Positions 6,400 through 60,334 of a stretch of DNA of 64,000 nucleotides are shown in pieces. Source of the stretch: Candidatus Omnitrophota bacterium (lineage in GTDB: Bacteria > Omnitrophota > Gorgyraeia > Zapsychrales > Zapsychraceae). Location: contig JAJDCB010000030.1 in the NCBI GenBank assembly GCA_029261065.1, positions 324,876 to 388,875 of the forward strand. The letters are read 5' to 3'. Position 1 is the stretch's first letter, and every line of letters begins with the position of its first letter. The notes under the pieces are model-generated. The model worked only from the letters and a program-made list of their open reading frames with translations, was not told the origin of the DNA and did no database searches. Made by a program: the position numbers and the translations under genes.

Positions 6400-6500
6400 G
6401 GATTCCCGATGTCTCGGGAATGACAAGTGTACTTGAACACTGGATTCCTGATGATTCAGGAATGACAGGACACCTTGTCATTCCCGCAAAAGCGGGAATC
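6400..6500. repeat. three dRS3-like units (GGATTCC-N-GGAATGACA, two direct and one inverted)
   Basis: Seen directly. ATTCCC/ATTCCT-N8-GGGAAT cores. Confidence 0.7.
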
Positions 6501-19316: not shown

Positions 19317-20370
19317 TACGGAACAAATTCCTTTAAATGAAGTGTTAACGATCGTCTCTGCGATGACGAAGAAGGCTATCGATCAAGTCCAACCGTTGAC
19401 AGGGGGGAAAAATAGTCGGGTTTTTAAATTAACAACATCCGATAATAAGAATTACGCTGCAAAATTTTATTTTCGAGATTCGTCAGATAAAAGAGATCGA
19501 TTGAATAATGAATATGGATCATTAGAAAAATTAGCAAAATATCAGGTTAAACACATTCCGCAACCGATTGCGATTTCAAAAGAACATTCGTGTGCGATTT
19601 ATTCGTTTCTTGAAGGTTCTGCAAAAAGAGATATCAAGAAAAAAGATATCGATGCTGCTATTAAGTTTATGACGCAGTTGAAGACAGTGCGAAAAAAATG
19701 TCAAGCGAATGATTTTATTGTGGCCTCTGAAGCGCATTTCTCTATGGTTGAAGTTTACAAACATGTTTATGACAGGCTTACAAAGTTGATGGCTATCGAG
19801 AATGATGAACCTATCTATAAAGACCTTTCTAATTTCTTAATCAGAGATTTATCACAAGTCTTTGTTCATCTACAAAGTTGGATGATAACGCAATGTGATA
19901 AAGAGGGCTTTGGTTTTTATGAACCTTTGGCCCAAGAAGACCGTATTCTTAGCCCATCAGACTTTGGATTTCATAATGCTCTATGTGATTCAAAAGGAGG
20001 GTGGACCTTTGTTGATTTTGAATATTTTGGATGGGATGATCCCGCCAAAATGATTTCAGATTTTCTCCTACATCCAGCGATGAATTTAACAGATGAGATG
20101 CGGCAATATTTTTTCCAAAAAGCGTGTGCATCTATGAAAACGGTTAACCCCAAAATAGCCAAACGTGTTGAGTTGATGTGTCCTTTGTTTGGGTTAAAGT
20201 GGTGTCTTATTTTTCTTAATGAATTTCTTCCCTCAGACTGTAATCGAAGGCATTTTGCAAATACCACATCCTTTGATGCCGATACGGTGCGTGAACTACA
20301 ACTAACAAAAGCAAAAGCGATGTTTAAACGCGTTTCAAACGTTTATAAAGAGTTTCCTTATCATGCCTAA
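19297..20370 (+). CDS. aminoglycoside/choline-kinase-like phosphotransferase (APH fold)
   Basis: Catalytic HN and DFE motifs (FGFHNALCD...FVDFEYFG). Confidence 0.55.
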   Translation: MSATLVDTEQIPLNEVLTIVSAMTKKAIDQVQPLTGGKNSRVFKLTTSDNKNYAAKFYFRDSSDKRDRLNNEYGSLEKLAKYQVKHIPQPIAISKEHSCAIYSFLEGSAKRDIKKKDIDAAIKFMTQLKTVRKKCQANDFIVASEAHFSMVEVYKHVYDRLTKLMAIENDEPIYKDLSNFLIRDLSQVFVHLQSWMITQCDKEGFGFYEPLAQEDRILSPSDFGFHNALCDSKGGWTFVDFEYFGWDDPAKMISDFLLHPAMNLTDEMRQYFFQKACASMKTVNPKIAKRVELMCPLFGLKWCLIFLNEFLPSDCNRRHFANTTSFDADTVRELQLTKAKAMFKRVSNVYKEFPYHA

Positions 20371-21193
20371 TCAAATATTAGACTACAAAACAAAACTAGA
20401 TGCGCGTTCAAAGTATCTTCGATCGCAGATTATTAAGGGACTCCGAGCTGGTCGTCGTGGGCATATTGGTGCTTCATTTTCATTAGTTGAAATTATGCGT
20501 GTGCTTTACGATGATATTTTAAAGTTTGATGCCACTAATCCTTCATGGAGTCAACGGGATCGTTGTATTTTAAGTAAAGGTCATGGGTGTTTGGCGTTGT
20601 ATGTGATGTTGGTTGATAAAGGGTTTATTCCAGAAGAAGAGCTTCTGAAGTTTTGTCAGGTTGACGGTATTTTAGGTGGGCATCCGGAACATAAAGTGGC
20701 TGGGGTTGAGGCCTCTACTGGAAGTTTGGGGCATGGATTATCGATTGGTTTGGGAATGGCGATCAATGCACGATACGAAAAAAATGGTGCGCGTGTGTTT
20801 GTTATTCTTGGAGATGGCGAAAGTAATGAAGGATCGGTTTGGGAGGCGGCGATGAGTGCAGGGAAAAATAAGCTAGAAAATTTGGTTGTCATGGTGGATT
20901 ACAACAAACATCAATCTTATGCCTCAACCTTTGAGGTTCAAGATTTAGAACCGTTTGCCGATAAGTGGCGCGCCTTTAACTTTGCAGTCAGTGAAGTCGA
21001 TGGTCATGATGTAAAGCAATTGAAAGAAGCGTTACAAAAACCTTCAAAAGAAGGAAAACCAACCGCTATTATTTGTCACACGGTTAAAGGCAAAGGGGTG
21101 CCTTACGCGGAAGGCAACATGCAATGGCATCATAAGAGTCGGATTTCAGATGAAGATATCAATTCCCTTTTAGAAGAAGTCGAGAAATATTAA
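20363..21193 (+). CDS. transketolase, N-terminal (ThDP-binding) subunit of a split transketolase
   Basis: GHxG and ThDP motif GDGESNEGSVWEA. Overlaps the upstream gene by 8 nt. Confidence 0.8.
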   Translation: MPNQILDYKTKLDARSKYLRSQIIKGLRAGRRGHIGASFSLVEIMRVLYDDILKFDATNPSWSQRDRCILSKGHGCLALYVMLVDKGFIPEEELLKFCQVDGILGGHPEHKVAGVEASTGSLGHGLSIGLGMAINARYEKNGARVFVILGDGESNEGSVWEAAMSAGKNKLENLVVMVDYNKHQSYASTFEVQDLEPFADKWRAFNFAVSEVDGHDVKQLKEALQKPSKEGKPTAIICHTVKGKGVPYAEGNMQWHHKSRISDEDINSLLEEVEKY

Positions 21194-21194
21194 T

Positions 21195-22139
21195 ATGCGA
21201 AAAACAGCTCTTAACTGTGTTTATGAATTAGCGAAATCTAACCCGGATATCTTTTTTATCGGATCTGATTTAGGCGTTGATACCTTAAAAGCATTTAAAG
21301 AAGAGATGCCTGAGCGTTTTTTGATGGAGGGGGTGAGTGAAGCCAATGTTGTTGGCATGGCTGCCGGTCTTGCTCTTGAGGGAAAGACGGTTTATGTCAA
21401 TACCATCGCAACGTTTTTAACCCGTCGTTGTTTTGAACAGGTTGTTTTGGATTTGGGGTTACATAATGTTAAGGTTCGCTTGATTGGAAATGGCGGCGGT
21501 GTTGTTTATGCCCCGTTAGGCCCAACACATTTAGCGATTGATGATATTGCTATCATGAGAGCCATTCCTAATGTGACCATTGTTGCCTGCGCGGATGCCG
21601 TTGAGATGAAGAAGTTGATTGTCCAAACCGTTGATTATCCAGGTCCTATGTACATTCGTTTAGCTAAAGGGCATGATCCTTTGGTGACGCAAGAAGAGAC
21701 TCCGTTTGAAATTGGTAAAGCGATTCGTATGAAGAGGGGAGATGATGGATTGATTTTAACAACGGGCATTACATTACGAACAGCTCTTGAGGCGATAAAA
21801 ACATTAGAAGTTCAAGGATTAGATGTGGGTATTGTACATGTCCCGACGATCAAACCGTTGGATACAGATTTTATTCGTACTCAAATTGATGCTGTCCCAT
21901 TAGTAGTCAGTGTCGAGGAGCACACCATTATGGGTGGATTAGGAAGCGCGATTGCTGAGTTGATTGCCGAATCAACGTTTGAAGCACCAAAAGGATTTAA
22001 ACGTATTGGTATTCCAGATATTTTTCCAGATCAATATGGGTCACAAGATAGTTTGATGGAGAGGTGCGGGGTATCTGCTGGAGCTATTGTTGCTGCGATT
22101 TGGGAAATCAGTAAGAAGTATGTAGTAAGTAGTAGGTAG
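21195..22139 (+). CDS. transketolase, C-terminal (pyrimidine-binding) subunit
   Basis: Transketolase pyrimidine-domain blocks. Starts 1 nt after the upstream stop. Confidence 0.8.
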   Translation: MRKTALNCVYELAKSNPDIFFIGSDLGVDTLKAFKEEMPERFLMEGVSEANVVGMAAGLALEGKTVYVNTIATFLTRRCFEQVVLDLGLHNVKVRLIGNGGGVVYAPLGPTHLAIDDIAIMRAIPNVTIVACADAVEMKKLIVQTVDYPGPMYIRLAKGHDPLVTQEETPFEIGKAIRMKRGDDGLILTTGITLRTALEAIKTLEVQGLDVGIVHVPTIKPLDTDFIRTQIDAVPLVVSVEEHTIMGGLGSAIAELIAESTFEAPKGFKRIGIPDIFPDQYGSQDSLMERCGVSAGAIVAAIWEISKKYVVSSR

Positions 22140-22251
22140 AAAGATAAAAGAGAATTAAGTAAGGAGTAAGTCGTAGGTGGTAGGTAGAAATGTGTTTTTG
22201 TTTTCTACTTACAACATACAACTTACTACCTACCGAACTAAAGGAGCAAGC

Positions 22252-22914
22252 ATGAGTCAACTATGTAACATCGTCACCCCATTACACCAACGGACATCAA
22301 GAAAATATATTGATCGGATGGTCGATGAAAAAGTTCAGTGTATGTATAAAGCGAAAGAATACGAGTTTGACTATTGGGATGGGGATAGAAGATTTGGGTA
22401 TGGCGGTTATAAATATGATGGGCGATGGAAAGAGGTTGCTGAACGTTTTATTGAACGTTATCAATTAAAGAGTGATGCCAAGATTTTGGATATTGGTTGC
22501 GGGAAGGCTCATTTGTTACATGAATTAAAAGAGTTGTTACCTGATGCTGAAGTTGTCGGGTTTGACATCTCCGACCATGGTATTAGTGATGCTCCAAAAG
22601 AGATTCGTGAGAATCTTTTTCGATATCGTGCTCAAGATAAATATCCTTGGGGTGATAAGCATTTTGATTTGGTTTTATCGTTAGGGTGCTTTCATAATCT
22701 ACGGATTTTCGAATTGGAATCCGCAGTTAAAGAAATGGAACGTGTCGGTAAAAATAAATACATTATGTTAGAAAGTTACCGCAACGAACTCGAACTCTTT
22801 AACCTCCAGTGCTGGGCCTTAACCTGCGAATCTTTTTTTGATACCGCAGAATGGATTTGGTTGTATCGGCATTTTGGGTATACGGGGGATTATGAGTTTA
22901 TTTATTTTGAATAA
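22252..22914 (+). CDS. class I SAM-dependent methyltransferase
   Basis: Motif I ILDIGCGKAHLL. RBS AAGGAG. The longer ORF start was rejected. Confidence 0.7.
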   Translation: MSQLCNIVTPLHQRTSRKYIDRMVDEKVQCMYKAKEYEFDYWDGDRRFGYGGYKYDGRWKEVAERFIERYQLKSDAKILDIGCGKAHLLHELKELLPDAEVVGFDISDHGISDAPKEIRENLFRYRAQDKYPWGDKHFDLVLSLGCFHNLRIFELESAVKEMERVGKNKYIMLESYRNELELFNLQCWALTCESFFDTAEWIWLYRHFGYTGDYEFIYFE

Positions 22915-22917
22915 CAG

Positions 22918-22991
22918 CTGTCATTCCCGCGGAAGCGGGGATCTGTACGGGATGACATTTGCGTGTGTCATTCCTGCGAAAGCGGAAAACC
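22918..22991. repeat. dRS3-like units (TGTCATTCCCGCGGAAGCGGGGATC and TGTCATTCCTGCGAAAGCGGAAAAC)
   Basis: Seen directly. Confidence 0.7.
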
Positions 22992-23022
22992 GTGCGGGTC
23001 GATTAATAGAGGAGAATAAAAT

Positions 23023-23325
23023 ATGATGACTAAAGATGATGTTGTTAAAATTCTTCGAGAAGAACAACCTTACTTAAAAAAAGAATTTGGTATAAAGAGA
23101 ATGGCTATATTTGGTTCTTTTGCGAAAAATACAGCCTCGGAATTAAGTGATGTTGATATTTTTATTGAATTTGATGGACGGTTAGGACTTAGATTCATGG
23201 AATTGGTTGAATATTTAGAAAAAAAACTAAATAGAGAGGTAGACATTCTGACACCAGGCGGTATGGAAGGAATTCGGGTAAAGAAAGTTGTTGAAGAAAT
23301 TCAAAGGAGTTTGTTAGATGTCTAA
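23023..23325 (+). CDS. MNT-type nucleotidyltransferase antitoxin
   Basis: GSFAKNTASELSDVDIFIEF nucleotidyltransferase motif (GS-x9-DxD). Confidence 0.7.
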   Translation: MMTKDDVVKILREEQPYLKKEFGIKRMAIFGSFAKNTASELSDVDIFIEFDGRLGLRFMELVEYLEKKLNREVDILTPGGMEGIRVKKVVEEIQRSLLDV

Positions 23326-23665
23326 ACGAGGAGATATTGAATTATTGAGCGATATTCAAGAGGCTATTAAAAGGATTTTTGAATATCGAGGACATATGAG
23401 TTACGAGCAGTTTATGGAAGATTTGAAAACTCAAGATGCGATTGTTAGAAATATGGAAATTGTTGGTGAGGCTGTGAAAGGTTTATCTGATGAGCTAAAA
23501 GGAAAATATCCACAAGTTTCTTGGAGTGAGTTAGCAAAAGTAAGAGATAAATTGATTCACCATTATTTTGGTGTAAATTATGACATTGTAATTGAAATCA
23601 TTGATGAAAATTTACCTAAAGTTCAACAGCATATTGAAGAAATTTCGGGTCAGATGTCAGGGTAG
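23318..23665 (+). CDS. HepT-type (DUF86) RNase toxin
   Basis: R-x4-H-x-Y motif (RDKLIHHY). 8-nt overlap with the MNT gene. Confidence 0.7.
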   Translation: MSKRGDIELLSDIQEAIKRIFEYRGHMSYEQFMEDLKTQDAIVRNMEIVGEAVKGLSDELKGKYPQVSWSELAKVRDKLIHHYFGVNYDIVIEIIDENLPKVQQHIEEISGQMSG

Positions 23666-23684: not shown

Positions 23685-23790
23685 TCCCGAATTGTCATTC
23701 CCGTGAAAGCGGGAATCTATACGGAGCGATTAATATATTTTAGTTCATAGTTTTACTATTTTGAGGTTCCCGCTTTCGCGGGAATGACAA
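23685..23790. repeat. dRS3-like units (TGTCATTCCCGTGAAAGCGGGAATC and inverted GGTTCCCGCTTTCGCGGGAATGACA)
   Basis: Seen directly. Confidence 0.7.
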
Positions 23791-23823
23791 TATTATTAGT
23801 TAACAATTATTGAGAGATATCCC

Positions 23824-24915
23824 ATGCCAAGCCAAACACAGGAACAAGATCAGCAAGTAGATGCCAGCAAGACAAAAACTTCAAAAGCCGCAATTCTCGT
23901 CGAGCTAAACAAACCCCTAGAAATCGCCGAGATCGAATTACCAGAGCAACTTTTTTTTGGACAAGTACGCGTTAAGGTGAAGTACAGCGGCATTTGTGGC
24001 GCGCAGATTAATGAGATTGAGGGGGCGAAGGGGCCGGATAAATTTTTACCGCATTTGTTAGGGCATGAAGGATCCGGTGTGGTTGAAGAAGTTGGTCCGG
24101 GTGTTAAGACTGTCAAAGTTGGTGATCATGTGGTGTTGCATTGGCGTCCGAGTGATGGGTTGCAATGTGAGCCGCCGAATTATTCTTGGAATGGTAAAAA
24201 AGTTAATGCTGGTTGGGTGACCACGTTTAATGAGCGTGCGATTATTTCTGAAAATCGTTTAACAGTGATTCCAAAAGATTTTGATATGCGTATAGCTCCT
24301 CTGTTTGGATGTGCGGTGACAACAGCTGTGGGTGTTATCAATAATGATGCGCAGGTAAAAATGGGGCAATCGGTTGTTGTCTTTGGAGTAGGTGGTGTGG
24401 GTTTAAATATTGTTCAAGCCGCTGAGTTAGCATCAGCAACGCCTATCATTGCCATTGATTTAGTGGAATCTAAATTGACGATGGCGAGAAAGTTGGGTGC
24501 AACTCATAGTTTTCAATCCCAGAAGGTGGATGATTTAAAACAAGCGATTCGAGACATTGTAGGGGAAAAAGGACCAGATGTCATTATTGAAACAACAGGC
24601 AACGCGAGTGTGATTGAAATGGCGTATGAACTGACACACCCGGATGGTAAAACAATTCTTGTTGGTGTTCCTCGAAAAGGTGACAACATCTCTATTTATT
24701 CGTTACCGCTTCATTTTAAGAAAGTATTAACAGGTTCCCACGGTGGCAGCTGTGAACCTCATATTGATATTCCGCGATTAATCCGATTAAAGGAAAGCGG
24801 AAAGCTTAAATTAGATGAGCTGATCACTCATGAATTTAAATTGGAAGAAATTAATAAGGCATTAGAGGTATTAAAATCAGGTGATTCTGGCCGGATTATT
24901 ATTTCGATGGAATAA
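23824..24915 (+). CDS. zinc-dependent medium-chain alcohol dehydrogenase (class III ADH-like)
   Basis: GHEGSG(V) zinc-ligand motif and GxGxxG NAD fold (VFGVGGVGL). Confidence 0.75.
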   Translation: MPSQTQEQDQQVDASKTKTSKAAILVELNKPLEIAEIELPEQLFFGQVRVKVKYSGICGAQINEIEGAKGPDKFLPHLLGHEGSGVVEEVGPGVKTVKVGDHVVLHWRPSDGLQCEPPNYSWNGKKVNAGWVTTFNERAIISENRLTVIPKDFDMRIAPLFGCAVTTAVGVINNDAQVKMGQSVVVFGVGGVGLNIVQAAELASATPIIAIDLVESKLTMARKLGATHSFQSQKVDDLKQAIRDIVGEKGPDVIIETTGNASVIEMAYELTHPDGKTILVGVPRKGDNISIYSLPLHFKKVLTGSHGGSCEPHIDIPRLIRLKESGKLKLDELITHEFKLEEINKALEVLKSGDSGRIIISME

Positions 24916-24917
24916 AC

Positions 24918-25823
24918 ATGAGTTTAAGGACAATTTTTACTTTTTTGGTTTTGTTTGTGTGTGTTTCTACGTTCTTTGACATAAAAGTGGAAGGCGCGGT
25001 TGAACGTATTGAGTTGGATTATAAATTTACAACCAATACGGTAACAGAGTTTTATTTGTTGTCTCACTTTCTTGATGGAAAGGAAACGATTCGCTTAGGA
25101 GATCAGATTTATGGAGTTGAGAAATCTACCAACGAATTTTTTGTGGACTACTACCTTGATACACCTGATTTGAGTTTGTTAAAAGATGATACATCGTTGC
25201 GGATGCGATCAAGGTTTATTAATGGGCAGTTAAGTAAGAGACTCATTCAATTTAAAACACCAATTAAAGATAATGCAGATGCAAGGTTTGAACATAAGTT
25301 AAAAATTCCTAAAAGTACAGAATTTCAATCCATTACAGATGTTGTTAATTTTCTACAATTACCCACGCATACAAAGAATCGTGTTGTCAGTGAATTGTCT
25401 GACAGCATTAATCTTGCTTCATTACGGGAAGTCGTTGAGATTAATCAGATTAGAACACGGTACTATTTAACCAATGCTAAAGGCAAACCGTTTTATACCA
25501 TTACATTTGATGAGTCGTATGCCAGAAAGGGAATGGATATCATTCCTTTCTTTGAGATAGAATTTGAAATTAATGAAAAGAGAATGGGGCAAGCAAAAGA
25601 GGATGAAGCTAGCGTTTTATTAACTCAGATTCAAGAATTAATTCAAAAAGCCAAATCAACACAAATTTCTATGCATTCGAATAATATTTCGAAGTATAAG
25701 CGTGCCATCAATTCGCTTGGCATTGATACAACGCAAACGAAGGGTATAACGTTTTCATTTGTGTTGGTGATCATAGCTGGTATTTTGATCGGTTTTTATT
25801 TGTTAAAGGAGAGAAAATCATGA
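24918..25823 (+). CDS. CYTH/triphosphate-tunnel-metalloenzyme-like domain protein with N-terminal signal and C-terminal TM anchor
   Basis: N-terminal ELDYK (ExDxK-like), RMRSR (RxR), and C-terminal FEIEFEI (ExExE) strands arranged as in the CYTH fold. C-terminal TM helix. Confidence 0.4.
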   Translation: MSLRTIFTFLVLFVCVSTFFDIKVEGAVERIELDYKFTTNTVTEFYLLSHFLDGKETIRLGDQIYGVEKSTNEFFVDYYLDTPDLSLLKDDTSLRMRSRFINGQLSKRLIQFKTPIKDNADARFEHKLKIPKSTEFQSITDVVNFLQLPTHTKNRVVSELSDSINLASLREVVEINQIRTRYYLTNAKGKPFYTITFDESYARKGMDIIPFFEIEFEINEKRMGQAKEDEASVLLTQIQELIQKAKSTQISMHSNNISKYKRAINSLGIDTTQTKGITFSFVLVIIAGILIGFYLLKERKS

Positions 25824-26509
25824 CGTTACAACAGTTGCAAGACTACTTTACAACCCTTGCCCCTGATAGTGTTTTGGGATTTAGTGTTAATTTAGTGTTA
25901 GCGGCATTTTTAACAACGATTTTAAGTCGTTTTTACATTAAATACGGTCGATCTTATTCCGATCGCCATGTTTTAGCTAACAATTTTATTATCATCACCT
26001 TAACGACCATGATGGTTATTACTGTGATTAAGTCTTCATTAGCTTTGTCTCTGGGATTAGTGGGAGCTCTTTCGATTGTTCGTTTTCGAACAGCTATCAA
26101 GGAACCTGAGGAGTTGGCTTATTTATTTTTATGTATTGGTATTGGATTAGGTCTCGGGGCATCAGCCCGTCGAACAACATTTATTGTTTGTGGCATGATC
26201 TTTTGCATTATTTGGTATCGAGCGAACAAGCGAAAAGAAGTTACGTATCCTAATTTGTCTTTAATTGTTTCAAAGACGATTGGCAATGGGCAAAAGGCGG
26301 TATTAAAAGATTTGATTGAGATTATTAAAAAACATTGCAGCCGTGTGGATGTTATTAGGTTTGAAGAATCTCAAGAGCATCTTGAATCTTCCTTTCATAT
26401 TGAATGTGCTTCGTTTGATAGTGTTCAATTTATACGAGATGACATAAAAAAAGCAGATGATGCGATGCATATTACCTTTATCGATAATAGTGCGGGTAAG
26501 GTTCTTTAA
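25820..26509 (+). CDS. small polytopic membrane protein (DUF4956-like)
   Basis: 3-4 TM helices followed by a soluble C-terminal domain. ATGA overlap. Its position between CYTH/VTC and CotH-like genes is typical of DUF4956. Confidence 0.35.
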   Translation: MTLQQLQDYFTTLAPDSVLGFSVNLVLAAFLTTILSRFYIKYGRSYSDRHVLANNFIIITLTTMMVITVIKSSLALSLGLVGALSIVRFRTAIKEPEELAYLFLCIGIGLGLGASARRTTFIVCGMIFCIIWYRANKRKEVTYPNLSLIVSKTIGNGQKAVLKDLIEIIKKHCSRVDVIRFEESQEHLESSFHIECASFDSVQFIRDDIKKADDAMHITFIDNSAGKVL

Positions 26510-26526
26510 GGGTAGAGAATTCAAAT

Positions 26527-29091
26527 ATGTTAATTAAAAATGAACAGCAATCATCGTTAAAGCAATCAAAGGAAACTTTAAAAAATATTCTTTCCGGAAT
26601 TGTAAAAAAAAGAAATATTGTAGCGGGTGTTTGTTTCTTATTGATTGTTCTCATTTATGTCACTGTGACGTTTGTGTTGCTTTATGATAAAGGCGATTTC
26701 TATACGGAATTACGAAATTCTCTTAAGGGTGTAAAGAATTTACCAGCGTATGTGGTGCTTCTACCTAAACAAATTTACAGACGTCTGACAACGGAACCGA
26801 AACAATTGGCTATTGAAATCAGTCCTAGGAATTTTCAAAAGTTGATGCAATGGAGGCAAGATAGTATTGATAATGGTCTCGTTATTAAAGAGCACAAACA
26901 GTATCTAAAAGGAACGATTCGTGAAAATGGAGGAGATCCTAAAGATATACGTCTGCGGTTAAAAGGTGATGCTGCTTATTATCATATGGATACTTCAAAA
27001 TGGTCGTTAAGAGTTGTTATGGAAGGCGAGGATAACATTTTTGGGATGCAACGCTTTTCTTTGCAGCATCCTCAACGAAGATCCTATTTGCGTTCTTTTA
27101 TTTTTCATAAAATGCTGGAGCTTGAGGGTGTGATGAGTATTAATTATGATTTAGTTCGCGTTACGATTAATGGGGCTGATAAGGGTATTTATAATATAGA
27201 AGAGGTTCCAAGTGCTGCGATGATAAAGAGACATAATAGAGAAGAAGGTGTCTTTGTGCGATTTGATGAAGGTCCTCACATGACAGAGAAAGTTGATCAA
27301 TCGGCTTATAAAGATGCTTATCTTGGCTCTGCGATTATTACGATCGGACAGCGTGAAGTTTTCAATCAACCGCGTTTGAAAGAACATTTTTTGAGGGCCA
27401 CGGAGTTACTTAATGGTTTTCGCCATGGAGATTTAGTTGCCCATGAAGTCTTTGATATTCAATCCATGGCGCGATGGATGGCCATTGGCGATATTTTAGG
27501 ATGTTGGCATGGTTTTGGGTTAGGTAACAAACGATTTTATTATAATCCGGATTTAGATCGTTTACAGCCTATTGGATGGGATGGTGTTGATGAAAATAAT
27601 TTTGGAATCGTGGGAAAGGATCCGCATGGTGATCGCCTTTTTCGTTTAGATGATCCTTATATGGATCCAGAAACGGTGTTTTGGAAAGAAATTTTTGATG
27701 ATCAGATTTTATTAACAGAGTATATTCGCACTTTAGATCGCATGACACAACCCGAGTATTTAGACAATCAATTAACTAAGATAGAAGATGACTTGCAGGA
27801 ATATCTTCCGACATTACAACGGGATTATCCTCAATTTACTTTAGAGCGTGATGTTCGGATGATTAAGGATGTTCAAGACTACATACGACGGGTTTATTTA
27901 TATCCTGTTAAAAATATTCATGCTTATTTTGAAGATTATTATGAGAAGGTCTTAACTCTTGGTTTTACAAATCGTAAGCCGATTCCAGTCGAAATTTTAA
28001 GCGTTCGTCAGAGGTCAGATAACGTCGAATTAATTCCAGAAGGGGAACGCATAATGTTAACTGGAAAGGCTCCTTTAAAACCTCCTGTTTATCAGAGAGT
28101 TAAGTTTCAAGGGGTGAGTCACATAGATTTGGATTCTGCATCGATGAATGATTTGGAGGTGAAGTACAGAGTTTTAGGTTTGGAGCAGGTACGAACGGAA
28201 ACCATTTATGATTGGAAGCGATATGATTCAGCTGAGTTTAAAGAAAGGCGTCATCATTTGAAAACAAATTTGGCTGGATTGGAGTTCTTAGAAATAGATG
28301 AAAAGAGCAAAGAAATATTTATTAAAAAGGGGACGTGGACGTTAACGAAAACCTTGCGCGTGCCCAAAGGTTTCACACTTCGAGCTGAAGCTGGAACAAA
28401 AATATTATTAGATGAAGCGGCTATCGTCTCATTGTCTCCAGTCGTTTTTCGTGGAACAGAAGAGGATCCTATTATTATTGAAGGCAAAAGCATTGGTAAC
28501 ACAGGTTTAGTGATTAAGGATACCGATTTAACATCTACCTTTGAGTATGTTCAATTTAGAAATTTATCCAAACCTAATTTCTGGGAGTGGGAGGTGAATA
28601 GTTCTGTAACCTTTGAAAATGCTTCTTTGAATATCAAGGATTGCATTTTCGACAAGAGTCGAACAGATAATTTTGTCAGTGTGATTAATGCTTTTTTTCA
28701 AATCGATCAAGTTGTCTTTCGGGATAGTTTAAAATCAGCTCTTTCCATTAATTTTAGCAAAGGTTATTTATCAGATCTTATCGTCAAAACAACAGGCAAG
28801 CATGCCCTTATATTAACGGGATCTCAAGTTGAAGTGCACAATATGAATATAGATGATGTAAAGGTTTCTGGTATTAAGCTTCAAGATAGTAGCAAACTTG
28901 ATTTCGCTTCAGGAAGCATTCGAAGATGTTCACATGCCGTTAATGTAGAGGGTTTATCTTCAGCTCTTTTAGATTCTGTTTTGATTAAGGAATGTGACAA
29001 TCAGCCTTTTTTTGTGAGTGATGATTCGACTTTAAGTTTTAATGGTCAAAATATTTTAAACACGGAACCTGTGGTTCAAGCTGCAAAGTAG
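26527..29091 (+). CDS. CotH-like atypical kinase family protein with N-terminal TM helix and C-terminal right-handed beta-helix region
   Basis: 854 aa. Single N-terminal TM. Central region resembles CotH. C-terminal repetitive beta-helix-like segments. Confidence is from general architecture only. Confidence 0.35.
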   Translation: MLIKNEQQSSLKQSKETLKNILSGIVKKRNIVAGVCFLLIVLIYVTVTFVLLYDKGDFYTELRNSLKGVKNLPAYVVLLPKQIYRRLTTEPKQLAIEISPRNFQKLMQWRQDSIDNGLVIKEHKQYLKGTIRENGGDPKDIRLRLKGDAAYYHMDTSKWSLRVVMEGEDNIFGMQRFSLQHPQRRSYLRSFIFHKMLELEGVMSINYDLVRVTINGADKGIYNIEEVPSAAMIKRHNREEGVFVRFDEGPHMTEKVDQSAYKDAYLGSAIITIGQREVFNQPRLKEHFLRATELLNGFRHGDLVAHEVFDIQSMARWMAIGDILGCWHGFGLGNKRFYYNPDLDRLQPIGWDGVDENNFGIVGKDPHGDRLFRLDDPYMDPETVFWKEIFDDQILLTEYIRTLDRMTQPEYLDNQLTKIEDDLQEYLPTLQRDYPQFTLERDVRMIKDVQDYIRRVYLYPVKNIHAYFEDYYEKVLTLGFTNRKPIPVEILSVRQRSDNVELIPEGERIMLTGKAPLKPPVYQRVKFQGVSHIDLDSASMNDLEVKYRVLGLEQVRTETIYDWKRYDSAEFKERRHHLKTNLAGLEFLEIDEKSKEIFIKKGTWTLTKTLRVPKGFTLRAEAGTKILLDEAAIVSLSPVVFRGTEEDPIIIEGKSIGNTGLVIKDTDLTSTFEYVQFRNLSKPNFWEWEVNSSVTFENASLNIKDCIFDKSRTDNFVSVINAFFQIDQVVFRDSLKSALSINFSKGYLSDLIVKTTGKHALILTGSQVEVHNMNIDDVKVSGIKLQDSSKLDFASGSIRRCSHAVNVEGLSSALLDSVLIKECDNQPFFVSDDSTLSFNGQNILNTEPVVQAAK

Positions 29092-29099
29092 TTAATCAT

Positions 29100-29795
29100 A
29101 TGAGATTTTTATTAAACAAATATAAAGACAAAGATTTTCGATCCGAATTAAAGTACGTATTTCAAAATGTTGATGAAAAATTTCTTGAACGTAACATTAA
29201 AAAGCATCCAGCTTTGTTTTCAGAGATTTTTCATAAACGTTGGATTAATAACATTTATTTTGATTCGGCGGATCTCAATGCCTATTACAGCAGCATAGAT
29301 GGTTTGTCACCTAGAATTAAGGTAAGGGTGCGTTGGTATAATGATTTTTTCGGATTCATTCACCCTACGTTGGAATTTAAGATGAAGCAAGCTAACAAAA
29401 ATGTTAAAGCATTATATGAATTAGATCCTATGTCTATTCCATCGAGAATATCAATTTTTCAATTAAAGAAAATAATATTAACGAATCCCGCTTTACCAAG
29501 AGAAATTAAAAATGCGCTTCAGTCTTTAAGACCAACAATGATCAATCGTTATGAACGTCAATATTACATGTCGCAAGATAAAGCTTTTCGTGTCACTGTC
29601 GATAGATCCGTTAACGTGGCTTCTTTATTAAATACGCATACGTTATCGACCATGAAAAAACTCCCCGCAGGTTTTACAATTTTAGAGATGAAATATAAAG
29701 ATGATTATCAACAAGCAGGTCAAATCATACACGAGTTTGCCGCTCACTTGCAATACACGCGTATGTCTAAATATACAGTTGGGCTGGAATATTAA
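29100..29795 (+). CDS. VTC/CYTH-like domain protein (polyphosphate-polymerase-domain family)
   Basis: ELKYVF and RVRW motifs resemble the VTC-domain tunnel-strand motifs. About 230 aa, typical for bacterial VTC proteins. Confidence 0.35.
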   Translation: MRFLLNKYKDKDFRSELKYVFQNVDEKFLERNIKKHPALFSEIFHKRWINNIYFDSADLNAYYSSIDGLSPRIKVRVRWYNDFFGFIHPTLEFKMKQANKNVKALYELDPMSIPSRISIFQLKKIILTNPALPREIKNALQSLRPTMINRYERQYYMSQDKAFRVTVDRSVNVASLLNTHTLSTMKKLPAGFTILEMKYKDDYQQAGQIIHEFAAHLQYTRMSKYTVGLEY

Positions 29796-29801
29796 AAGGT
29801 C

Positions 29802-29853
29802 GTCCCCGTTTTGTCGGGGCCGAACCTCGTCATTTTTTAATAGTAAAATGACG
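29802..29853 (+). terminator. candidate terminator (two hairpins, CCCCG-N6-CGGGG and CGTCATTTTTT-N6-AAAATGACG)
   Basis: Seen directly. The T-run is embedded in the second hairpin. Confidence 0.3.
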
Positions 29854-29873
29854 AAATGCCGGGAGTAAGGTTA

Positions 29874-31112
29874 ATGGAATCTTGTCGTCTTTGTCGTAAT
29901 GCAAACATGTCGCCGATCTTAGAATTAGGATCTCATCCTATTGCGCATCGTTTTTTAAACGATCCTTCGGTTAAGGAGTATGTGCATCCTATTGCTCTTG
30001 AATTATGTGAAGAATGTGGGCTTATCCAATTAAAAGAACCTGTGGATCCCAAGCTTTTATATTCTGAATATTTTTGCTTGAGCTCCTGGAAATGGCAACC
30101 TCATATGTCAAGGTTGGCTGAGCTTGTTAACGAACTTCCTGGATTAGATAAGTCGGCCAAAGTTTTAGAAATTGGATGTAACGATGGAGGCTTTTTACAG
30201 GTGTTAAAAGAGCTTGGTTTTGAAAATGTGATGGGTGTGGAGCCCGCACAAGATGCTGTTGATTTAGCAAAGCAAAGAAATTTGAATGTCATCGGAACAT
30301 ATTTTAATAAAGAGGTGGCCAAAGATATTCTATCAAGTTTTGGTCAGGTTGATTTTTTAGTGTCTCGGCAAATGTTAGAACATATTACGGATTTAGATGA
30401 AATGAAAGAAGCGATGCGGATGGTTTTGAAACCTGGTGGTTTGCTTTTTATTGAAGTTCCTAATTTCGAATTTAATTTGTCAGTTGCTGACTACAGTGGC
30501 ATTTGGGAGGAGCACTCAAATTATTTTACAAAGGATAGCCTTTCAAAATTTATGGCAGATATAGGTGTTGAGATGACGCATTGGGAAACAGCTAATTTTA
30601 GTGGAGATGCTTTAATCGCTTTTGGTCGATCGGTTGAGGGTGCGGTTGAGGGTGCGGTTGAAGTTCACGCAGAGCAATATTTACCAACTCTTCGCAAAAA
30701 AGTTTTAGCGTATAAAGAACACTGGCCCATATTTAAGAGTAGTTTTTCTAATTATTTAAAAGAGCATAACGATCAAGGTGGCAAAGTTTCCGTTTTTGGA
30801 GCAGGCTGTCGGGCTTGTTCTTTGATTAATTATACGCAATTAACGCCCTACATTGATTGTTTTATTGATGATCAGCCAGAGAAGCAAGGGAAGTTTATGC
30901 CTGGTTCAAAATTACCTGTGTATCCTAGTGATGCGCTAAAAGAACGTGGCATTGATTTATGTTTATTAGCGGTGAATGCCGAAAATGATGAGAAGGTTAT
31001 GGCGAAACATGAAGCCTTTCAGCAAAGGGGAGGCAAGTTTATTCCTATTTTACCTCCGAGTCAAAATCTTTTACCCTTTTGGAGTCTTGCGGATGCTTAC
31101 GAAAAAGTTTAA
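29874..31112 (+). CDS. nucleotide-sugar C-methyltransferase (TylC3/NovU-like; N-terminal zinc ribbon, SAM MTase, C-terminal C-methyltransferase domain)
   Basis: CRLC...CEEC zinc ribbon. LEIGCNDGGF motif I. RBS GGAGTAAGG. Confidence 0.6.
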   Translation: MESCRLCRNANMSPILELGSHPIAHRFLNDPSVKEYVHPIALELCEECGLIQLKEPVDPKLLYSEYFCLSSWKWQPHMSRLAELVNELPGLDKSAKVLEIGCNDGGFLQVLKELGFENVMGVEPAQDAVDLAKQRNLNVIGTYFNKEVAKDILSSFGQVDFLVSRQMLEHITDLDEMKEAMRMVLKPGGLLFIEVPNFEFNLSVADYSGIWEEHSNYFTKDSLSKFMADIGVEMTHWETANFSGDALIAFGRSVEGAVEGAVEVHAEQYLPTLRKKVLAYKEHWPIFKSSFSNYLKEHNDQGGKVSVFGAGCRACSLINYTQLTPYIDCFIDDQPEKQGKFMPGSKLPVYPSDALKERGIDLCLLAVNAENDEKVMAKHEAFQQRGGKFIPILPPSQNLLPFWSLADAYEKV

Positions 31113-31620
31113 TGATGAAGTCCTTTATCCGGATGAGCGTATCGTTAAAGTTTCTCATTCTCAGATAGAAGATTTAAAAGCTCAAGCGCTTAAGAATGAA
31201 CGTAAAAGAATAAGACTTTGTACTCATATGGATGTTTCAGATAGTGTTCATGAGATGTTAATCGTTCATAATCGCGATACGTATGTCAGACCACATAAAC
31301 ATATCGATAGAATGGAGTCTTTTCATATTATAGAAGGTTTGTGTGATGTCATTTTATTTGATGAGGAAGGAAATATTCGTGAGGTCGTTGAGATGGGCGA
31401 TGTTTCTTCCGGTAAGACATTTTATTACAGGATTTGTGATGCTATATATCATACTTTGATTATTGAGTCAGAAACATTAGTCTTCCATGAGACGACAAGT
31501 GGTCCCTTTAATAGAGAAGGTTCTGTTTTTGCTCCTTGGTCGCCTGAGGAGCACGAAGAAGAAAAAGTTAAATCATTTATTAATAGGATTAAAGCCAACA
31601 GGAATAGCTATGAGTCATGA
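31093..31620 (+). CDS. cupin-fold protein (WbuC/FdtA-like sugar ketoisomerase family)
   Basis: His-containing cupin motifs (RPHKH, ESFHIIEG). Located between the two C-methyltransferase genes. Confidence 0.35.
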   Translation: MLTKKFNDEVLYPDERIVKVSHSQIEDLKAQALKNERKRIRLCTHMDVSDSVHEMLIVHNRDTYVRPHKHIDRMESFHIIEGLCDVILFDEEGNIREVVEMGDVSSGKTFYYRICDAIYHTLIIESETLVFHETTSGPFNREGSVFAPWSPEEHEEEKVKSFINRIKANRNSYES

Positions 31621-32878
31621 CATGAAATCAGGTGAAGGAATAGATGTTTTAGATGATGTTATTCGACGAGAAGATTGTCGATTATGTCAGAGTAAGAATT
31701 TAAAATTGGTTTTAAAGCTTGAACCCACACCACTAGCTGATTCGTATATCCCAGAAGCTACGAAGCAAAGTATTTATCCTCTAGATTTATATCTGTGCGA
31801 GGATTGTGGTTTCACTCAACTTCTAGATGTTGTCCAGCCACAGGTTATTTATTTTGATTATTTATTTGAAACAAAGACTTCTTTAGGTCTTGTGGAGCAC
31901 TTTGGAAGGTATGCCGATGAGGTTCTTCAAAAGATTAAGCCGGCTCAAGATTCATTAGTTGTTGATATTGGCAGTAACGATGGATCTCTTCTTCAATTTT
32001 TTAAAAAACAAGATATGAAAGTATTAGGGGTTGATCCGGCTCGAGAAATAGCGCGAAAGGCTACTGAAGAGGGGGTTGAGACGTTGGCTGAATTGTTTAG
32101 TGAAGAGTTGGGGCGTTCTTTAAGAGAAGAGCGTGGGGCTGCATCCATTATTACTGTGAATAATTTGTTTGCAAATGTGGATAATCTCATAGATATGACA
32201 GCGGGGATAAGGGGATGGCTTGCTGAAGATGGGGTTTTTGTCTTTGAAAGTTTTTATTTAGTTGATCAAATTGAAAACATGGTTTTTGATTTTTCGTATC
32301 ACGAACATATTTCTTACTTTTCTGTTAAACCATTAGCCGCATTTTTTAAGAGTCAAGGCATGGAGCTTTTTGATGTTAAGCGCGTTCCTACAAAGGGTGG
32401 GTCGTTACGTTATTTTATTCAAATAGCCGGTGGCCCTCGTAAAGTGACCTCTGAGGTTCAAGATCTCATTGATCTTGAAACGAGTTTGAATATCCATCAA
32501 CCAGAAGCTTTTAAAAAATTTGAAGAGAAAATTAATCAAGCTAAAGAAAATCTTTTAAGTTTGTTAGACGATATCCATGCAAAGGGTCAAACTGTCGCAG
32601 CTTATGGTGCATCGGCTACTTCTACAACAATGATTTATCATTTCGATCTGACCAAAAGATTGTCTTTTATCATTGATGATAATCCACAACGGCAAGGTTT
32701 GTTTAGTCCTGGCTGTCACATCCCTGTGAAATCACCTGAGGATATTTATAAAGAGAAGCCGGATTACATCTTAGTTTTGGCTTGGCGATATTATAAAGCG
32801 ATTATGACAAATCATAAAAATTATACCGATGAGGGTGGGCGTTTTATTATTCCTTTACCGGAATTGGAAATTTTATAA
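31610..32878 (+). CDS. second nucleotide-sugar C-methyltransferase (paralogue of 29874-31112)
   Basis: CRLCQ...CEDCGFTQL zinc ribbon. VDIGSNDGSL motif I. Same architecture as the first copy. Confidence 0.6.
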   Translation: MSHDMKSGEGIDVLDDVIRREDCRLCQSKNLKLVLKLEPTPLADSYIPEATKQSIYPLDLYLCEDCGFTQLLDVVQPQVIYFDYLFETKTSLGLVEHFGRYADEVLQKIKPAQDSLVVDIGSNDGSLLQFFKKQDMKVLGVDPAREIARKATEEGVETLAELFSEELGRSLREERGAASIITVNNLFANVDNLIDMTAGIRGWLAEDGVFVFESFYLVDQIENMVFDFSYHEHISYFSVKPLAAFFKSQGMELFDVKRVPTKGGSLRYFIQIAGGPRKVTSEVQDLIDLETSLNIHQPEAFKKFEEKINQAKENLLSLLDDIHAKGQTVAAYGASATSTTMIYHFDLTKRLSFIIDDNPQRQGLFSPGCHIPVKSPEDIYKEKPDYILVLAWRYYKAIMTNHKNYTDEGGRFIIPLPELEIL

Positions 32879-34982: not shown

Positions 34983-34995
34983 AGGTTTAAAAATT

Positions 34996-59327: not shown

Positions 59328-59345
59328 AGAAAGTGATGTGTATTG

Positions 59346-60326: not shown

Positions 60327-60334
60327 AGAAACTT

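What the first reader, a model, noticed from the sequence alone, without database searches (positions are those of the whole stretch)
23824..29795. ADH - CYTH - DUF4956-like - CotH - VTC gene set embedded in the glycan locus: candidate uncharacterised envelope phospho-modification system
The block contains a Zn alcohol dehydrogenase, a signal-peptide CYTH-like protein with a TM anchor, a small polytopic membrane protein, a TM-anchored 854-aa CotH-like atypical kinase with a beta-helix tail, and a VTC/CYTH-like protein. It is tightly linked, bounded upstream by dRS3-like repeats and downstream by a terminator. CotH kinases and triphosphate-tunnel (CYTH/VTC) domains both handle nucleotide or polyphosphate substrates. 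Their recurrent co-occurrence has no assigned function. Placement inside an LPS or capsule locus suggests phosphorylation or polyphosphate-type decoration of a surface polymer or protein.
Basis: inference. Interest (0 to 1): 0.7.

Follow-up and report, generated by a model that had tools for sequence, protein, structure and literature searches.

The report
Split polyphosphate synthase with exported kinase-like enzyme
Four of the five flagged genes form a conserved, functionally uncharacterised module found across Bacteria and Archaea: a yeast-Vtc4-like polyphosphate polymerase inside the cell, a membrane partner, and a kinase-like enzyme plus a phosphohydrolase outside the membrane, which may deliver phosphate to surface sugars where there is no ATP.

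Summary
All five ORFs lie at the stated coordinates, and ADH, CYTH, DUF4956, CotH and VTC all pass Pfam's curated cut-offs.

DUF4956-CotH-VTC is a conserved unit:
- 502 loci in species-representative genomes encode relatives.
- Of 39 loci with full flanks, 33 carry all three genes, 27 in the same order.
- 16 of the best 80 loci are archaeal.

The anchored, exported CYTH is a recurrent fourth member in this branch. Other branches carry an exported metallophosphoesterase at that place. The ADH is not conserved. The upstream repeats bracket a toxin-antitoxin cassette, not the module.

Component findings:
- VTC keeps every Vtc4 catalytic residue, including the Lys that separates active Vtc4 from inactive Vtc2/3.
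- DUF4956 looks MgtC-like (membrane domain plus ACT-like domain), not Vtc1-like.
- The CotH-like protein is N-in/C-out with a polysaccharide-type beta-helix. It has His-Gly where CotH has its catalytic Asp.

Best model, mostly inferred: polyphosphate is made inside, passed across the membrane, and used outside to phosphorylate a glycan.

The triad was already noted beside Gram-positive pel operons, with no mechanism assigned. I rate this a new variant of a known but uncharacterised module, interest about 0.65.

The parts
24918..25823 (+). Exported, membrane-anchored CYTH (triphosphate tunnel) protein, 301 aa. Signal/TM segment at residues 6-24 (24933-24989), tunnel domain at about 28-262 (24999-25703), C-terminal TM at 277-295 (25746-25802), then KERKS.
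   Evidence: Pfam CYTH 44.3 bits. Hydrophobic segments. A family of 143 representatives of about 300 aa was found by full HMMER scan. The alignment shows a signal peptide followed by R-I-E-x-[ED]-Y-K, and invariant R30, D77, D81, R95, R97, K113, E125, K127, R179, R181, D198, E215, E217, E220 and K259. The gene lies next to DUF4956-CotH-VTC in L001, L085, L088 and a JGI contig.
25820..26509 (+). DUF4956 membrane protein, 229 aa. Five helices at residues 18-138 (25871-26233) and a C-terminal ACT/PII-like domain at 145-222 (26252-26485).
26527..29091 (+). CotH-like protein, 854 aa. K/R-rich N-tail, then TM at residues 34-52 (26626-26682), kinase-like domain at 93-458 (26803-27900), beta-sandwich at 464-560 (27916-28206), and right-handed beta-helix at 588-843 (28288-29055).
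   Evidence: Pfam CotH 41.8 bits. A family profile hits B. cereus CotH 5jd9 at E 4e-9. AF2 model has pLDDT 82. Foldseek gives 5jda at E 4e-13 and TM 0.69, then GH87 glucanases, tailspikes and polysaccharide lyases for the tail. An N-terminal anchor is present in 67 of 75 relatives. The flank charge bias indicates N-in in 62 of 69.
27508..27582 (+). Catalytic-loop region of the CotH-like domain: H328-G329 ... N334 ... R336-F-Y-Y-N340-P ... D352.
   Evidence: Alignment of 84 family members with B. cereus CotH. The column of the CotH catalytic Asp (B. cereus D224, B. subtilis D228, essential per PMC7821199) is G, A or S and never D. The preceding column is His in 82 of 84. N334 (= N229) is conserved in 83 of 84. 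D352 (= D247/D251) is D in 77 of 84.
29100..29795 (+). Stand-alone VTC (Vtc4-type triphosphate tunnel) protein, 231 aa, with no TM segment and so cytoplasmic.
   Evidence: Pfam VTC 85.5 bits. A profile of 58 relatives hits yeast Vtc4, Vtc2 and Vtc3 at E about 1e-10. K18, R76, R78, K94, Y151, R153, E196, S223 and K224 are invariant or nearly so. They align to Vtc4 K200, R264, R266, K281, Y359, R361, E426, S457 and K458, the residue list given in bioRxiv 10.1101/2023.01.27.525886.
29798..29854 (+). Structured spacer after the VTC stop codon, with two hairpins at 29798-29826 and 29827-29854. Possible terminator or attenuator.
   Evidence: RNA fold gives -26.7 kcal/mol and z = -5.2. A weak consensus terminator hit lies at 29815-29829 followed by a T-run.
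23824..24915 (+). Zn-dependent medium-chain alcohol dehydrogenase, 363 aa. It is adjacent and probably co-transcribed, but it is NOT a conserved member of the module.
   Evidence: Pfam ADH_N and ADH_zinc_N. No NCBIfam equivalog reaches its cut-off. No homologue was found in any of the 84 related loci. A radical-SAM gene or an ABC transporter lies at this place in L001, L085 and the JGI contig.

Best explanation
CYTH-DUF4956-CotH-VTC is one operon-encoded machine that spans the inner membrane and moves phosphoryl groups from the cytoplasm to the periplasmic face.

- Step 1. The cytoplasmic VTC protein is an active Vtc4-type tunnel enzyme that polymerises polyphosphate from the gamma-phosphate of ATP. 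The complete catalytic residue set is shown; the activity is inferred.
- Step 2. VTC works on the MgtC-like DUF4956 protein. The invariant R88-F-R90...K94-E-P-E-E segment and the ACT-like domain of DUF4956 face the cytoplasm. DUF4956 anchors the polymerase and passes the chain across the membrane. This is inferred by analogy with the yeast VTC complex. There is no homology to Vtc1.
- Step 3. Outside, where there is no ATP, the membrane-tethered CotH-like enzyme uses the exported polyphosphate as donor. Its beta-helix holds a polysaccharide, and the enzyme phosphorylates or polyphosphorylates a glycan intermediate of the surrounding O-antigen-like locus. The topology, fold and altered active site (His-Gly in place of the catalytic Asp, extra invariant Arg and His) are shown; donor and acceptor are inferred.
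- Step 4. The exported, anchored CYTH tunnel enzyme hydrolyses or trims polyphosphate or its tri/pyrophosphate remnants. In other lineages an exported metallophosphoesterase fills this role (inferred).
For: The module is a conserved unit:
- The genes abut or overlap.
- 502 genome loci encode relatives.
- 33 of 39 fully flanked loci have DUF4956 and VTC within 3 kb, 27 of them in the order DUF4956-CotH-VTC.
- DUF4956-seeded look-ups return the same triad.

VTC looks catalytically competent. It has profile homology to Vtc4 at E about 1e-10. All nine Vtc4 triphosphate/Mn ligands are conserved, including K458 (here K224), which is Ile or Leu in inactive Vtc2/3.

The split topology is conserved:
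- VTC lacks a hydrophobic segment in 53 of 55 relatives.
- CotH has an N-terminal anchor in 67 of 75.
- Net charge is +3.7 on the N side against +0.5 on the C side, with N greater than C in 62 of 69.
- CYTH has a signal peptide and a C-terminal anchor across its family.
- The host is a diderm, since the window encodes a TonB-dependent receptor.

Two unrelated exported phosphohydrolases occupy the fourth slot. CYTH fills it in the window, L001, L085, L088 and a JGI contig. A signal-peptide or Tat-signal Metallophos protein fills it in at least 11 other loci.

The CotH tail resembles polysaccharide-active beta-helices.

Context is a glycan locus in the window and in L001, L002, L003, L085, L089, L090 and the JGI contig. 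Three of these (window, L001, L090) also carry sulfation genes.

Deleting the DUF4956 and CotH homologues in S. intermedius lowers Pel polysaccharide and aggregation (PMC12345266).
Against: No activity of any component has been measured.

- DUF4956 shows no sequence or fold similarity to the Vtc1/Vtc4 membrane channel, and no MgtC-family protein is known to be a channel.
- The catalytic Asp of CotH is missing. The domain could therefore be a pseudokinase or carry out other chemistry. I could not inspect model coordinates to see where His328 sits.
- No polyphosphate-dependent CotH-like enzyme is known.
- A survey of the two nearest ORFs on each side in 36 genome loci was heterogeneous. Glycan families were the commonest but matched only 3-5 of 115 ORFs each. 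The link to glycans is therefore frequent, not obligate.
- The beta-helix is absent from some four-gene relatives, where CotH is 567-573 aa.
Confidence: 0.35

Rival explanations
1. Polyphosphate itself is the product. VTC and DUF4956 make and export polyphosphate to the periplasm or cell surface as a polyanionic layer, a cation or phosphate store, or a matrix component. The CotH-like protein binds or anchors the chain to a glycan through its beta-helix without catalysing transfer, acting as a pseudokinase. CYTH or Metallophos sets chain length or recovers phosphate.
For: The Vtc4 catalytic set is complete. The canonical catalytic Asp is lost in the CotH-like domain. Exported phosphohydrolases recur in the module. 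By my own recollection, the yeast vacuole likewise pairs VTC with lumenal polyphosphatases, one of them a metallophosphoesterase.
Against: The kinase-like core is under strong constraint: R144, G147, N334, R336-F-Y-Y-N-P, D352 and H328 are conserved in 77-84 of 84 members, including both metal ligands. This argues for catalysis rather than mere binding. Export through DUF4956 is as unproven here as in the main model.
Confidence: 0.2
2. The CotH-like protein is an ATP-using protein kinase, as in spore coats. It phosphorylates envelope or polysaccharide-synthesis proteins and so regulates glycan output. VTC and DUF4956 only tune phosphate or polyphosphate homeostasis. This is the suggestion made for the pel-linked genes.
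For: The domain belongs to Pfam CotH and has the CotH fold. This hypothesis is stated in 10.1101/768473 and PMC12345266. The ACT/PII-like domain on DUF4956 suggests ligand-sensing regulation.
Against: The catalytic domain is extracytoplasmic across the family, where ATP is not available. The Asp essential for CotH kinase activity (PMC7821199) is absent in all 84 members. The polysaccharide-type beta-helix tail points to a glycan partner rather than a protein. This model does not explain strict synteny with a polymerase that has a full catalytic set, nor the exported phosphohydrolases.
Confidence: 0.12
3. The two tunnel enzymes do not handle polyphosphate. VTC and CYTH act on nucleotides or other triphosphates, for example as triphosphatases or cyclases, and the module is a signalling or nucleotide-salvage device that happens to sit in glycan loci.
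For: The CYTH/TTM superfamily includes adenylate cyclases, thiamine triphosphatase and RNA triphosphatases (established knowledge). There is a weak NCBIfam hit of CYTH to class IV adenylate cyclase at E 0.0075, far below its cut-off. The ACT/PII-like domain could bind nucleotides.
Against: VTC carries the Vtc4-specific Ser-Lys pair (S223-K224) that distinguishes the polymerase from inactive paralogues. The CYTH domain is exported, so it is away from nucleotide pools.
Confidence: 0.08

Closest known systems
cotH / polyphosphate-polymerase / DUF4956 (plus DUF4832) accessory genes of Gram-positive pel operons (Whitfield et al. 2020, 10.1101/768473; S. intermedius SIR_1592-1594, PMC12345266)
   Same: The same three Pfam families lie in one contiguous block. 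The CotH-like protein is exported, DUF4956 is described as an MgtC-like membrane domain plus ACT domain, and the block sits next to polysaccharide genes. The mechanism is unknown in both cases.
   Different: There are no pel genes and no DUF4832 in the window. The host is a diderm. The CotH tail is a beta-helix rather than FN3, and the protein is anchored by an N-terminal TM helix. An exported CYTH protein is added. The 2025 paper reports failing to find the triad outside pel loci, whereas here it is found in at least 502 genomes, including Archaea.
Yeast VTC complex (Vtc4/Vtc3 or Vtc2/Vtc1), the eukaryotic polyphosphate polymerase-translocase
   Same: The catalytic tunnel domain is homologous (E about 1e-10) and all Vtc4 active-site residues are present. 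A soluble catalytic part is paired with a small polytopic membrane protein. A phosphohydrolase lies on the far side of the membrane.
   Different: There is no SPX domain. The catalytic domain is not fused to a membrane domain. The membrane partner is MgtC-like with an ACT-like domain and shows no detectable similarity to Vtc1. A CotH-like enzyme is added, which the eukaryotic complex lacks.
Bacillus CotH spore-coat Ser/Thr kinase (PDB 5JD9/5JDA)
   Same: The atypical kinase fold matches (Foldseek TM 0.69, E 4e-13). The metal-binding Asn and Asp are conserved.
   Different: The catalytic Asp (B. subtilis D228) is replaced by Gly, Ala or Ser, with an invariant His one residue earlier. Extra invariant basic residues are present: R144, R162, R336 and H153. 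The protein is membrane-anchored and extracytoplasmic. It has beta-sandwich and beta-helix extensions. No sporulation context is present.
MgtC/SapB/YhiD family membrane proteins
   Different: This is a separate Pfam family (DUF4956). Its own invariant motif is KSSLALSLGLVGALSIVRFR..IKEPEE. It is always paired with VTC here, and no link to the F1Fo ATPase or to PhoR is known.

Membership tests
Pfam VTC / Vtc4-type polyphosphate polymerase catalytic domain | Profile match above the curated threshold and homology to the Vtc4 tunnel domain | tested here: met
   85.5 bits against GA 23. The family profile hits Vtc4, Vtc2 and Vtc3 chains at E 2e-10 to 5e-9.
Pfam VTC / Vtc4-type polyphosphate polymerase catalytic domain | Triphosphate/Mn ligands K200, R264, R266, K281, Y359, R361, E426, S457 and K458, where K458 distinguishes active Vtc4 from Vtc2/3 | tested here: met
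   Window residues K18, R76, R78, K94, Y151, R153, E196, S223 and K224 are invariant or at least 90% conserved in 58 relatives. The residue list comes from 10.1101/2023.01.27.525886.
Pfam VTC / Vtc4-type polyphosphate polymerase catalytic domain | Synthesis of polyphosphate from ATP | not testable with these tools
   Needs an enzyme assay.
Eukaryotic VTC complex (as a system) | SPX regulatory domain and a Vtc1-type three-helix membrane domain forming the channel | tested here: not met
   The VTC protein is 231 aa with only the VTC domain. DUF4956 has no profile hit to Vtc chains and no fold hit among the top matches. It resembles MgtC instead.
Pfam CotH / CotH protein kinase | Profile match above threshold and the CotH atypical kinase fold | tested here: met
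   41.8 bits against GA 23.8. 5jd9 at E 4e-9 by profile. 5jda at E 4e-13 and TM 0.69 by fold.
Pfam CotH / CotH protein kinase | Catalytic Asp (B. subtilis D228, B. cereus D224) | tested here: not met
   The aligned column is G in 35, A in 31 and S in 13 of 84 family members, never D, and is G329 in the window. His is at the preceding column in 82 of 84. The essential role of D228 is from PMC7821199.
Pfam CotH / CotH protein kinase | Metal-binding Asn and Asp (B. cereus N229 and D247, B. subtilis D251) | tested here: met
   N334 is conserved in 83 of 84. D352 is D in 77 of 84, and N in the other 7.
CYTH / triphosphate tunnel metalloenzyme superfamily | Profile match, an N-terminal ExExK-type motif, and conserved acidic and basic tunnel residues | tested here: met
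   44.3 bits against GA 23.2. The motif is R30-I-E-L-D-Y-K36. R95, R97, K113, E125, K127, R179, R181, D198, E215, E217, E220 and K259 are invariant in 38 relatives.
Pfam DUF4956 | Profile match above threshold | tested here: met
   63.4 bits against GA 30.6. More than 8000 relatives all carry PF16316.
MgtC family | Pfam MgtC match and a C-terminal ACT-like domain | tested here: inconclusive
Gram-positive pel accessory module (cotH, polyP polymerase, DUF4956, DUF4832) | Contiguity with pelDEADAFG and presence of DUF4832 | tested here: not met
   Pfam scans of 55 ORFs of the window (50 flanking plus the 5 flagged) show heptose, branched-sugar, nonulosonic-acid and sulfation genes. No Pel or DUF4832 family was found.
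Known anti-phage defence systems | Match to any PADLOC model | tested here: not met
   No hits for any of the five proteins.

The most novel reading that the evidence does not exclude
Prokaryotes possess their own VTC-type polyphosphate synthase that extrudes the polymer through an MgtC-like membrane partner. An exported CotH-like enzyme, with His in place of the kinase catalytic Asp, uses that polyphosphate as phosphoryl donor to modify surface glycans. This would be an ATP-independent supply line for phosphorylation outside the cytoplasmic membrane, present in both Bacteria and Archaea.
Probability: 0.25. Interest if true: 0.9.

Novelty: new variant of a known kind. Interest (0 to 1): 0.65.

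Why it matters
Reviews of polyphosphate biology treat VTC as the eukaryotic polymerase and PPK1/PPK2 as the bacterial ones. A catalytically complete Vtc4-like enzyme spread across Bacteria and Archaea would change that picture and bear on the origin of the eukaryotic complex.

A second open question is how any phosphorylation could be powered outside the cytoplasmic membrane. A polymerase inside, paired with a kinase-like enzyme and phosphohydrolases outside, gives a concrete hypothesis that can be tested with four small proteins. It would also give the MgtC-like fold a biochemical role.

The module sits in O-antigen, capsule and exopolysaccharide loci, and its homologues affect Pel-dependent aggregation in a pathogen. 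Its product may therefore be a surface-antigen or biofilm determinant.

Tried and rejected
- **Look-ups that found nothing.** An exact look-up of the window CotH protein in the contig index found no record. Cluster look-ups gave no names or accessions. The window's own genome was not among the genome-contig hits. The organism is therefore unidentified beyond being a diderm with about 37% GC.
- **PDB searches.** Single-sequence searches with VTC, CYTH and DUF4956 found nothing useful. Only family profiles reached Vtc4.
- **DUF4956 as a Vtc1-like channel.** Rejected at the level of detectable homology.
- **ADH as a module member.** Rejected.
- **Repeats as module boundaries.** Rejected, because they bracket the MNT/HepT pair.
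- **Defence system.** No PADLOC hit.
- **Obligate link to glycan loci.** Not supported by the nearest-ORF survey, although Pfam-annotated neighbourhoods are mostly glycan loci.
- **Chance co-location of the genes.** Rejected by synteny across phyla.
Full report
**1. Observation**

Between successive genes there is a 2-nt gap (ADH to CYTH), a 4-nt overlap (CYTH to DUF4956), a 17-nt gap (DUF4956 to CotH) and an 8-nt gap (CotH to VTC). Every domain assignment made by eye passes Pfam's curated cut-off:

| Domain | Bits | Threshold |
|---|---|---|
| ADH_N | 59.2 | 23.5 |
| ADH_zinc_N | 90.2 | 31.8 |
| CYTH | 44.3 | 23.2 |
| DUF4956 | 63.4 | 30.6 |
| CotH | 41.8 | 23.8 |
| VTC | 85.5 | 23 |
| Beta_helix | 20.1 | 25.9 |

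Only the beta-helix is sub-threshold. It is recovered in homologues and in the structure model. NCBIfam has no model for the four non-ADH proteins, and PADLOC has none for any of the five.

**2. Is it a unit?**

The closest CotH relative (48% identity, L001) lies in CYTH-DUF4956-CotH-VTC order, behind the same split transketolase and methyltransferase genes as in the window. A radical-SAM gene replaces the ADH there. More distant relatives (26-29% identity) keep DUF4956-CotH-VTC.

A scan of one genome per species found 502 loci encoding relatives. The best 80 are 25-32% identical. They come from more than 25 bacterial lineages and from 16 archaeal genomes, including Methanosarcina, Methanolobus, Methanogenium and DPANN.

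I built HMMs from the window proteins and scanned all ORFs of the 84 loci.
- DUF4956 is present in 72 loci and VTC in 64. The CYTH protein was found only in L001 and the ADH in none.
- Among 39 independent loci with at least 3 kb on both sides, 33 carry both partners within 3 kb, and 27 of those are in the order DUF4956-CotH-VTC.
- Starting instead from two DUF4956 proteins returned the same triad.

The triad is therefore a conserved module. The ADH is a local neighbour.

**3. The fourth component**

The word-indexed search found only one relative of the CYTH protein. A full HMMER scan of 1.84 billion representatives found 143, most about 300 aa and full length.

All four relatives with enough context lie beside DUF4956, CotH and VTC: L001, L085, a JGI contig and L088. 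Their alignment shows a signal peptide, then R-I-E-x-[E/D]-Y-K within a few residues of its end. The full set of tunnel residues follows (R95, R97, K113, E125, K127, R179, R181, D198, E215, E217, E220, K259), and most have a C-terminal TM helix.

None of the 80 genome loci has this CYTH protein. However, at least 11 of the fetched loci (10 of the 80 genome loci plus L090) carry a gene for a signal-peptide metallophosphoesterase-like protein directly after CotH. Three more carry a Tat-signal Metallophos protein. Two unrelated exported phosphohydrolases thus alternate at the same place in the module.

**4. VTC**

Single-sequence PDB search failed. A profile of 58 relatives hits yeast Vtc4, Vtc2 and Vtc3 at E 2e-10 to 5e-9. 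The cryo-EM paper on the VTC complex lists the residues that bind triphosphate and Mn and are needed for synthesis: K200, R264, R266, K281, Y359, R361, E426, S457 and K458. K458 is the single difference from inactive Vtc2/3. The alignment maps these to window K18, R76, R78, K94, Y151, R153, E196, S223 and K224. All are invariant or at least 90% conserved in the family. The protein has no SPX domain and no hydrophobic segment.

**5. DUF4956**

The family is very large: more than 8000 hits saturated the search, and JGI labels many of them YhiD-like. The AF2 model (pLDDT 78) has five helices at residues 18-138 followed by a beta-alpha-beta-beta-alpha-beta domain.

That C-terminal domain matches PII-like SbtB, ACT domains and MgtC C-terminal domains. 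42 of 64 members weakly match Pfam MgtC. This agrees with the description of S. intermedius SIR_1592. No similarity to the Vtc1 or Vtc4 membrane domain was detected.

The best conserved stretch is K71-SSLALSLGLVGALSIV-R88-F-R90..I-K94-EPEE98. By loop charges, the R/K cluster and the ACT-like domain face the cytoplasm. This orientation is an inference.

**6. CotH-like protein**

The model (pLDDT 82) has five parts:
- an N-terminal TM helix,
- a kinase-like domain (residues 93-458),
- a beta-sandwich (464-560),
- a right-handed beta-helix (588-843).

Foldseek finds B. cereus CotH first (E 4e-13, TM 0.69). It then finds GH87 glucanases, phage tailspike depolymerases, polysaccharide lyases and an alginate epimerase.

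The orientation is supported at family level. 67 of 75 relatives have the N-terminal anchor. The 15 residues before it carry net +3.7 against +0.5 after it, with N greater than C in 62 of 69. The enzyme is therefore outside the membrane. The window encodes a TonB-dependent receptor, so in this host that means the periplasm.

The active site is altered. B. subtilis D228 and D251 are essential for CotH activity, and they correspond to B. cereus D224 and D247.
- D247 aligns with D352 (D in 77 of 84), and N229 aligns with N334 (83 of 84).
- The D224 column is Gly, Ala or Ser and never Asp. The preceding residue is His in 82 of 84.
- R144, R162, R336 and H153 are family-invariant where B. cereus CotH has V, H, A and E.
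- The CotH proteins of the four-gene relatives show the same W-H-[GA] motif.

**7. Context and boundaries**

The window is one long + strand glycan locus. It contains:
- HldE-like, SIS, epimerase and APH-like genes;
- a split transketolase and methyltransferases, including two sugar C-methyltransferases;
- DegT aminotransferases, a formyltransferase and an ABC exporter;
- a PK-PUA-ATP-sulfurylase fusion, an APS kinase and a sulfotransferase;
- NeuB, a 2-epimerase and a CMP-transferase, the nonulosonic-acid genes.

No pel genes and no DUF4832 are present.

Locally they flank an MNT/HepT toxin-antitoxin pair inserted between the methyltransferase and the ADH. The spacer after VTC is strongly structured, although it is only a weak consensus terminator.

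Pfam-annotated neighbourhoods of relatives are glycan loci in 7 of 8 cases. Three of the loci (window, L001, L090) also have sulfation genes. A cruder survey of the two nearest ORFs on each side in 36 genome loci was heterogeneous. Glycan families were the commonest, but each matched only 3-5 of 115 ORFs.

**8. Mechanism**

The following points are shown:
- the module is conserved;
- a Vtc4-like enzyme with a complete active site is on the inside;
- an MgtC-like membrane protein always accompanies it;
- a CotH-fold enzyme with a polysaccharide-type tail and an altered catalytic loop is on the outside;
- an exported phosphohydrolase of one of two families is often present.

The inferred model is that polyphosphate is made at the inner face, handed across the membrane with the help of DUF4956, and used outside as phosphoryl donor for a glycan, with the hydrolase trimming or recycling the polymer. 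I put about 0.35 on this complete chain.

Confidence is higher for some parts. The module being a functional unit is about 0.95. VTC being an active tunnel enzyme is about 0.8, and it being a polymerase is about 0.55.

The rivals are:
- polyphosphate itself as the exported product, with CotH as a binder (0.2);
- an ATP-dependent protein kinase with a regulatory role, as suggested for pel loci (0.12);
- non-polyphosphate substrates for the tunnel enzymes (0.08).

**9. What is known**

Whitfield et al. (10.1101/768473) listed cotH, a polyphosphate polymerase, DUF4956 and DUF4832 as accessory genes of Gram-positive pel operons. The 2025 S. intermedius study (PMC12345266) showed that deleting the DUF4956 and CotH genes lowers Pel and aggregation. 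It left the mechanism open and stated that the triad could not be found outside pel loci. C. perfringens NELoc-2 has the same families.

No paper in the library assigns a function. The module is therefore known as a gene neighbourhood but not as a system. New here are:
- its breadth, with at least 502 genomes in Bacteria and Archaea and independence from pel;
- the conserved inside/outside split;
- the full Vtc4 residue set;
- the Asp-to-His-Gly change;
- the alternating exported phosphohydrolases;
- this diderm, O-antigen-type, four-gene variant.

**10. Limits**

Nothing here measures activity. Model coordinates could not be inspected. Homologue sampling was seeded from this clade, and the organism is unidentified.

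Noticed in passing
window 22919-23008 and 23691-23791 (also 2692-2772 and 6402-6499): A family of palindromic repeats, GTCATTCCCGCGAAAGCGGGAAT, has 8 copies against 0 expected. Two direct copies lie before an MNT/HepT toxin-antitoxin pair (23023-23665) and an inverted pair lies after it. This looks like a small mobile or insertion-site element.
   Followed up: partly
L019:12366-13484, L090:10258-11349, L049:12388-15250, L032:12674-13768, L016:3613-4824, L031:3775-4701, L005:3343-4416, L008:12366-13427, L068:7978-9096; also L020:10052-10945, L028:5176-6183, L041:13203-14081: Exported metallophosphoesterase-like proteins are encoded inside the DUF4956-CotH-VTC module in many lineages, with a signal peptide in one group and a Tat motif in another. 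They sit at the place where this window has the exported CYTH protein.
   Followed up: partly
window 44272-47012 and 59343-60326; L090:317-3684; L001:15897-17282: An unusual fusion of pyruvate-kinase barrel, PUA and ATP-sulfurylase, together with an APS kinase and a sulfotransferase, lies in the same locus. The same fusion and a sulfotransferase flank the module in L090, and L001 has a sulfotransferase. The glycan may carry both sulfate and phosphate.
   Followed up: no
window 46987-48645: A 552-aa protein has a Sulfatase/alkaline-phosphatase-superfamily domain at residues 194-453 behind an N-terminal region. By recollection, this architecture is like phosphoethanolamine or phosphoglycerol transferases. 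It would be another candidate periplasmic phospho-modifier in the locus.
   Followed up: no
window 20363-22139, 22177-22914, 29856-32878: A split transketolase, a methyltransferase and two sugar C-methyltransferases (Methyltransf_13/14) suggest synthesis of a branched or chain-extended sugar. The same transketolase-methyltransferase-radical-SAM set travels with the four-gene module in L001 and L085. The ADH at 23824-24915 more probably belongs to this sugar pathway.
   Followed up: partly
L028:7966-11025, L041:16488-19544, L064:2-1048: Some loci carry a second, longer CotH paralogue of about 1020 aa with a different catalytic-loop sequence (N-T-N-H-V-R-F-G-S-D-N), sometimes with duplicated DUF4956 and VTC genes. 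In the family alignment, 7 sequences have Asn at each of H153, D310 and D352. I did not check whether these are the same 7 sequences.
   Followed up: no
literature, PMC12345266: The 2025 S. intermedius paper states that the DUF4956/polyP-polymerase/CotH synteny could not be found outside pel loci. The scans here find it in hundreds of genomes without pel genes.
   Followed up: yes
window 10120-10983: A HipA-like kinase toxin gene (HipA_C, E 5e-49) lies upstream of the glycan locus. The flanking small ORFs were not examined.
   Followed up: no
window 34963-38155, 54394-56886, 60314-62413: Four large ORFs in the glycan locus (421, 689, 830 and 699 aa) have no Pfam match at the thresholds used. 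They may be novel glycosyltransferases or polymerases.
   Followed up: no
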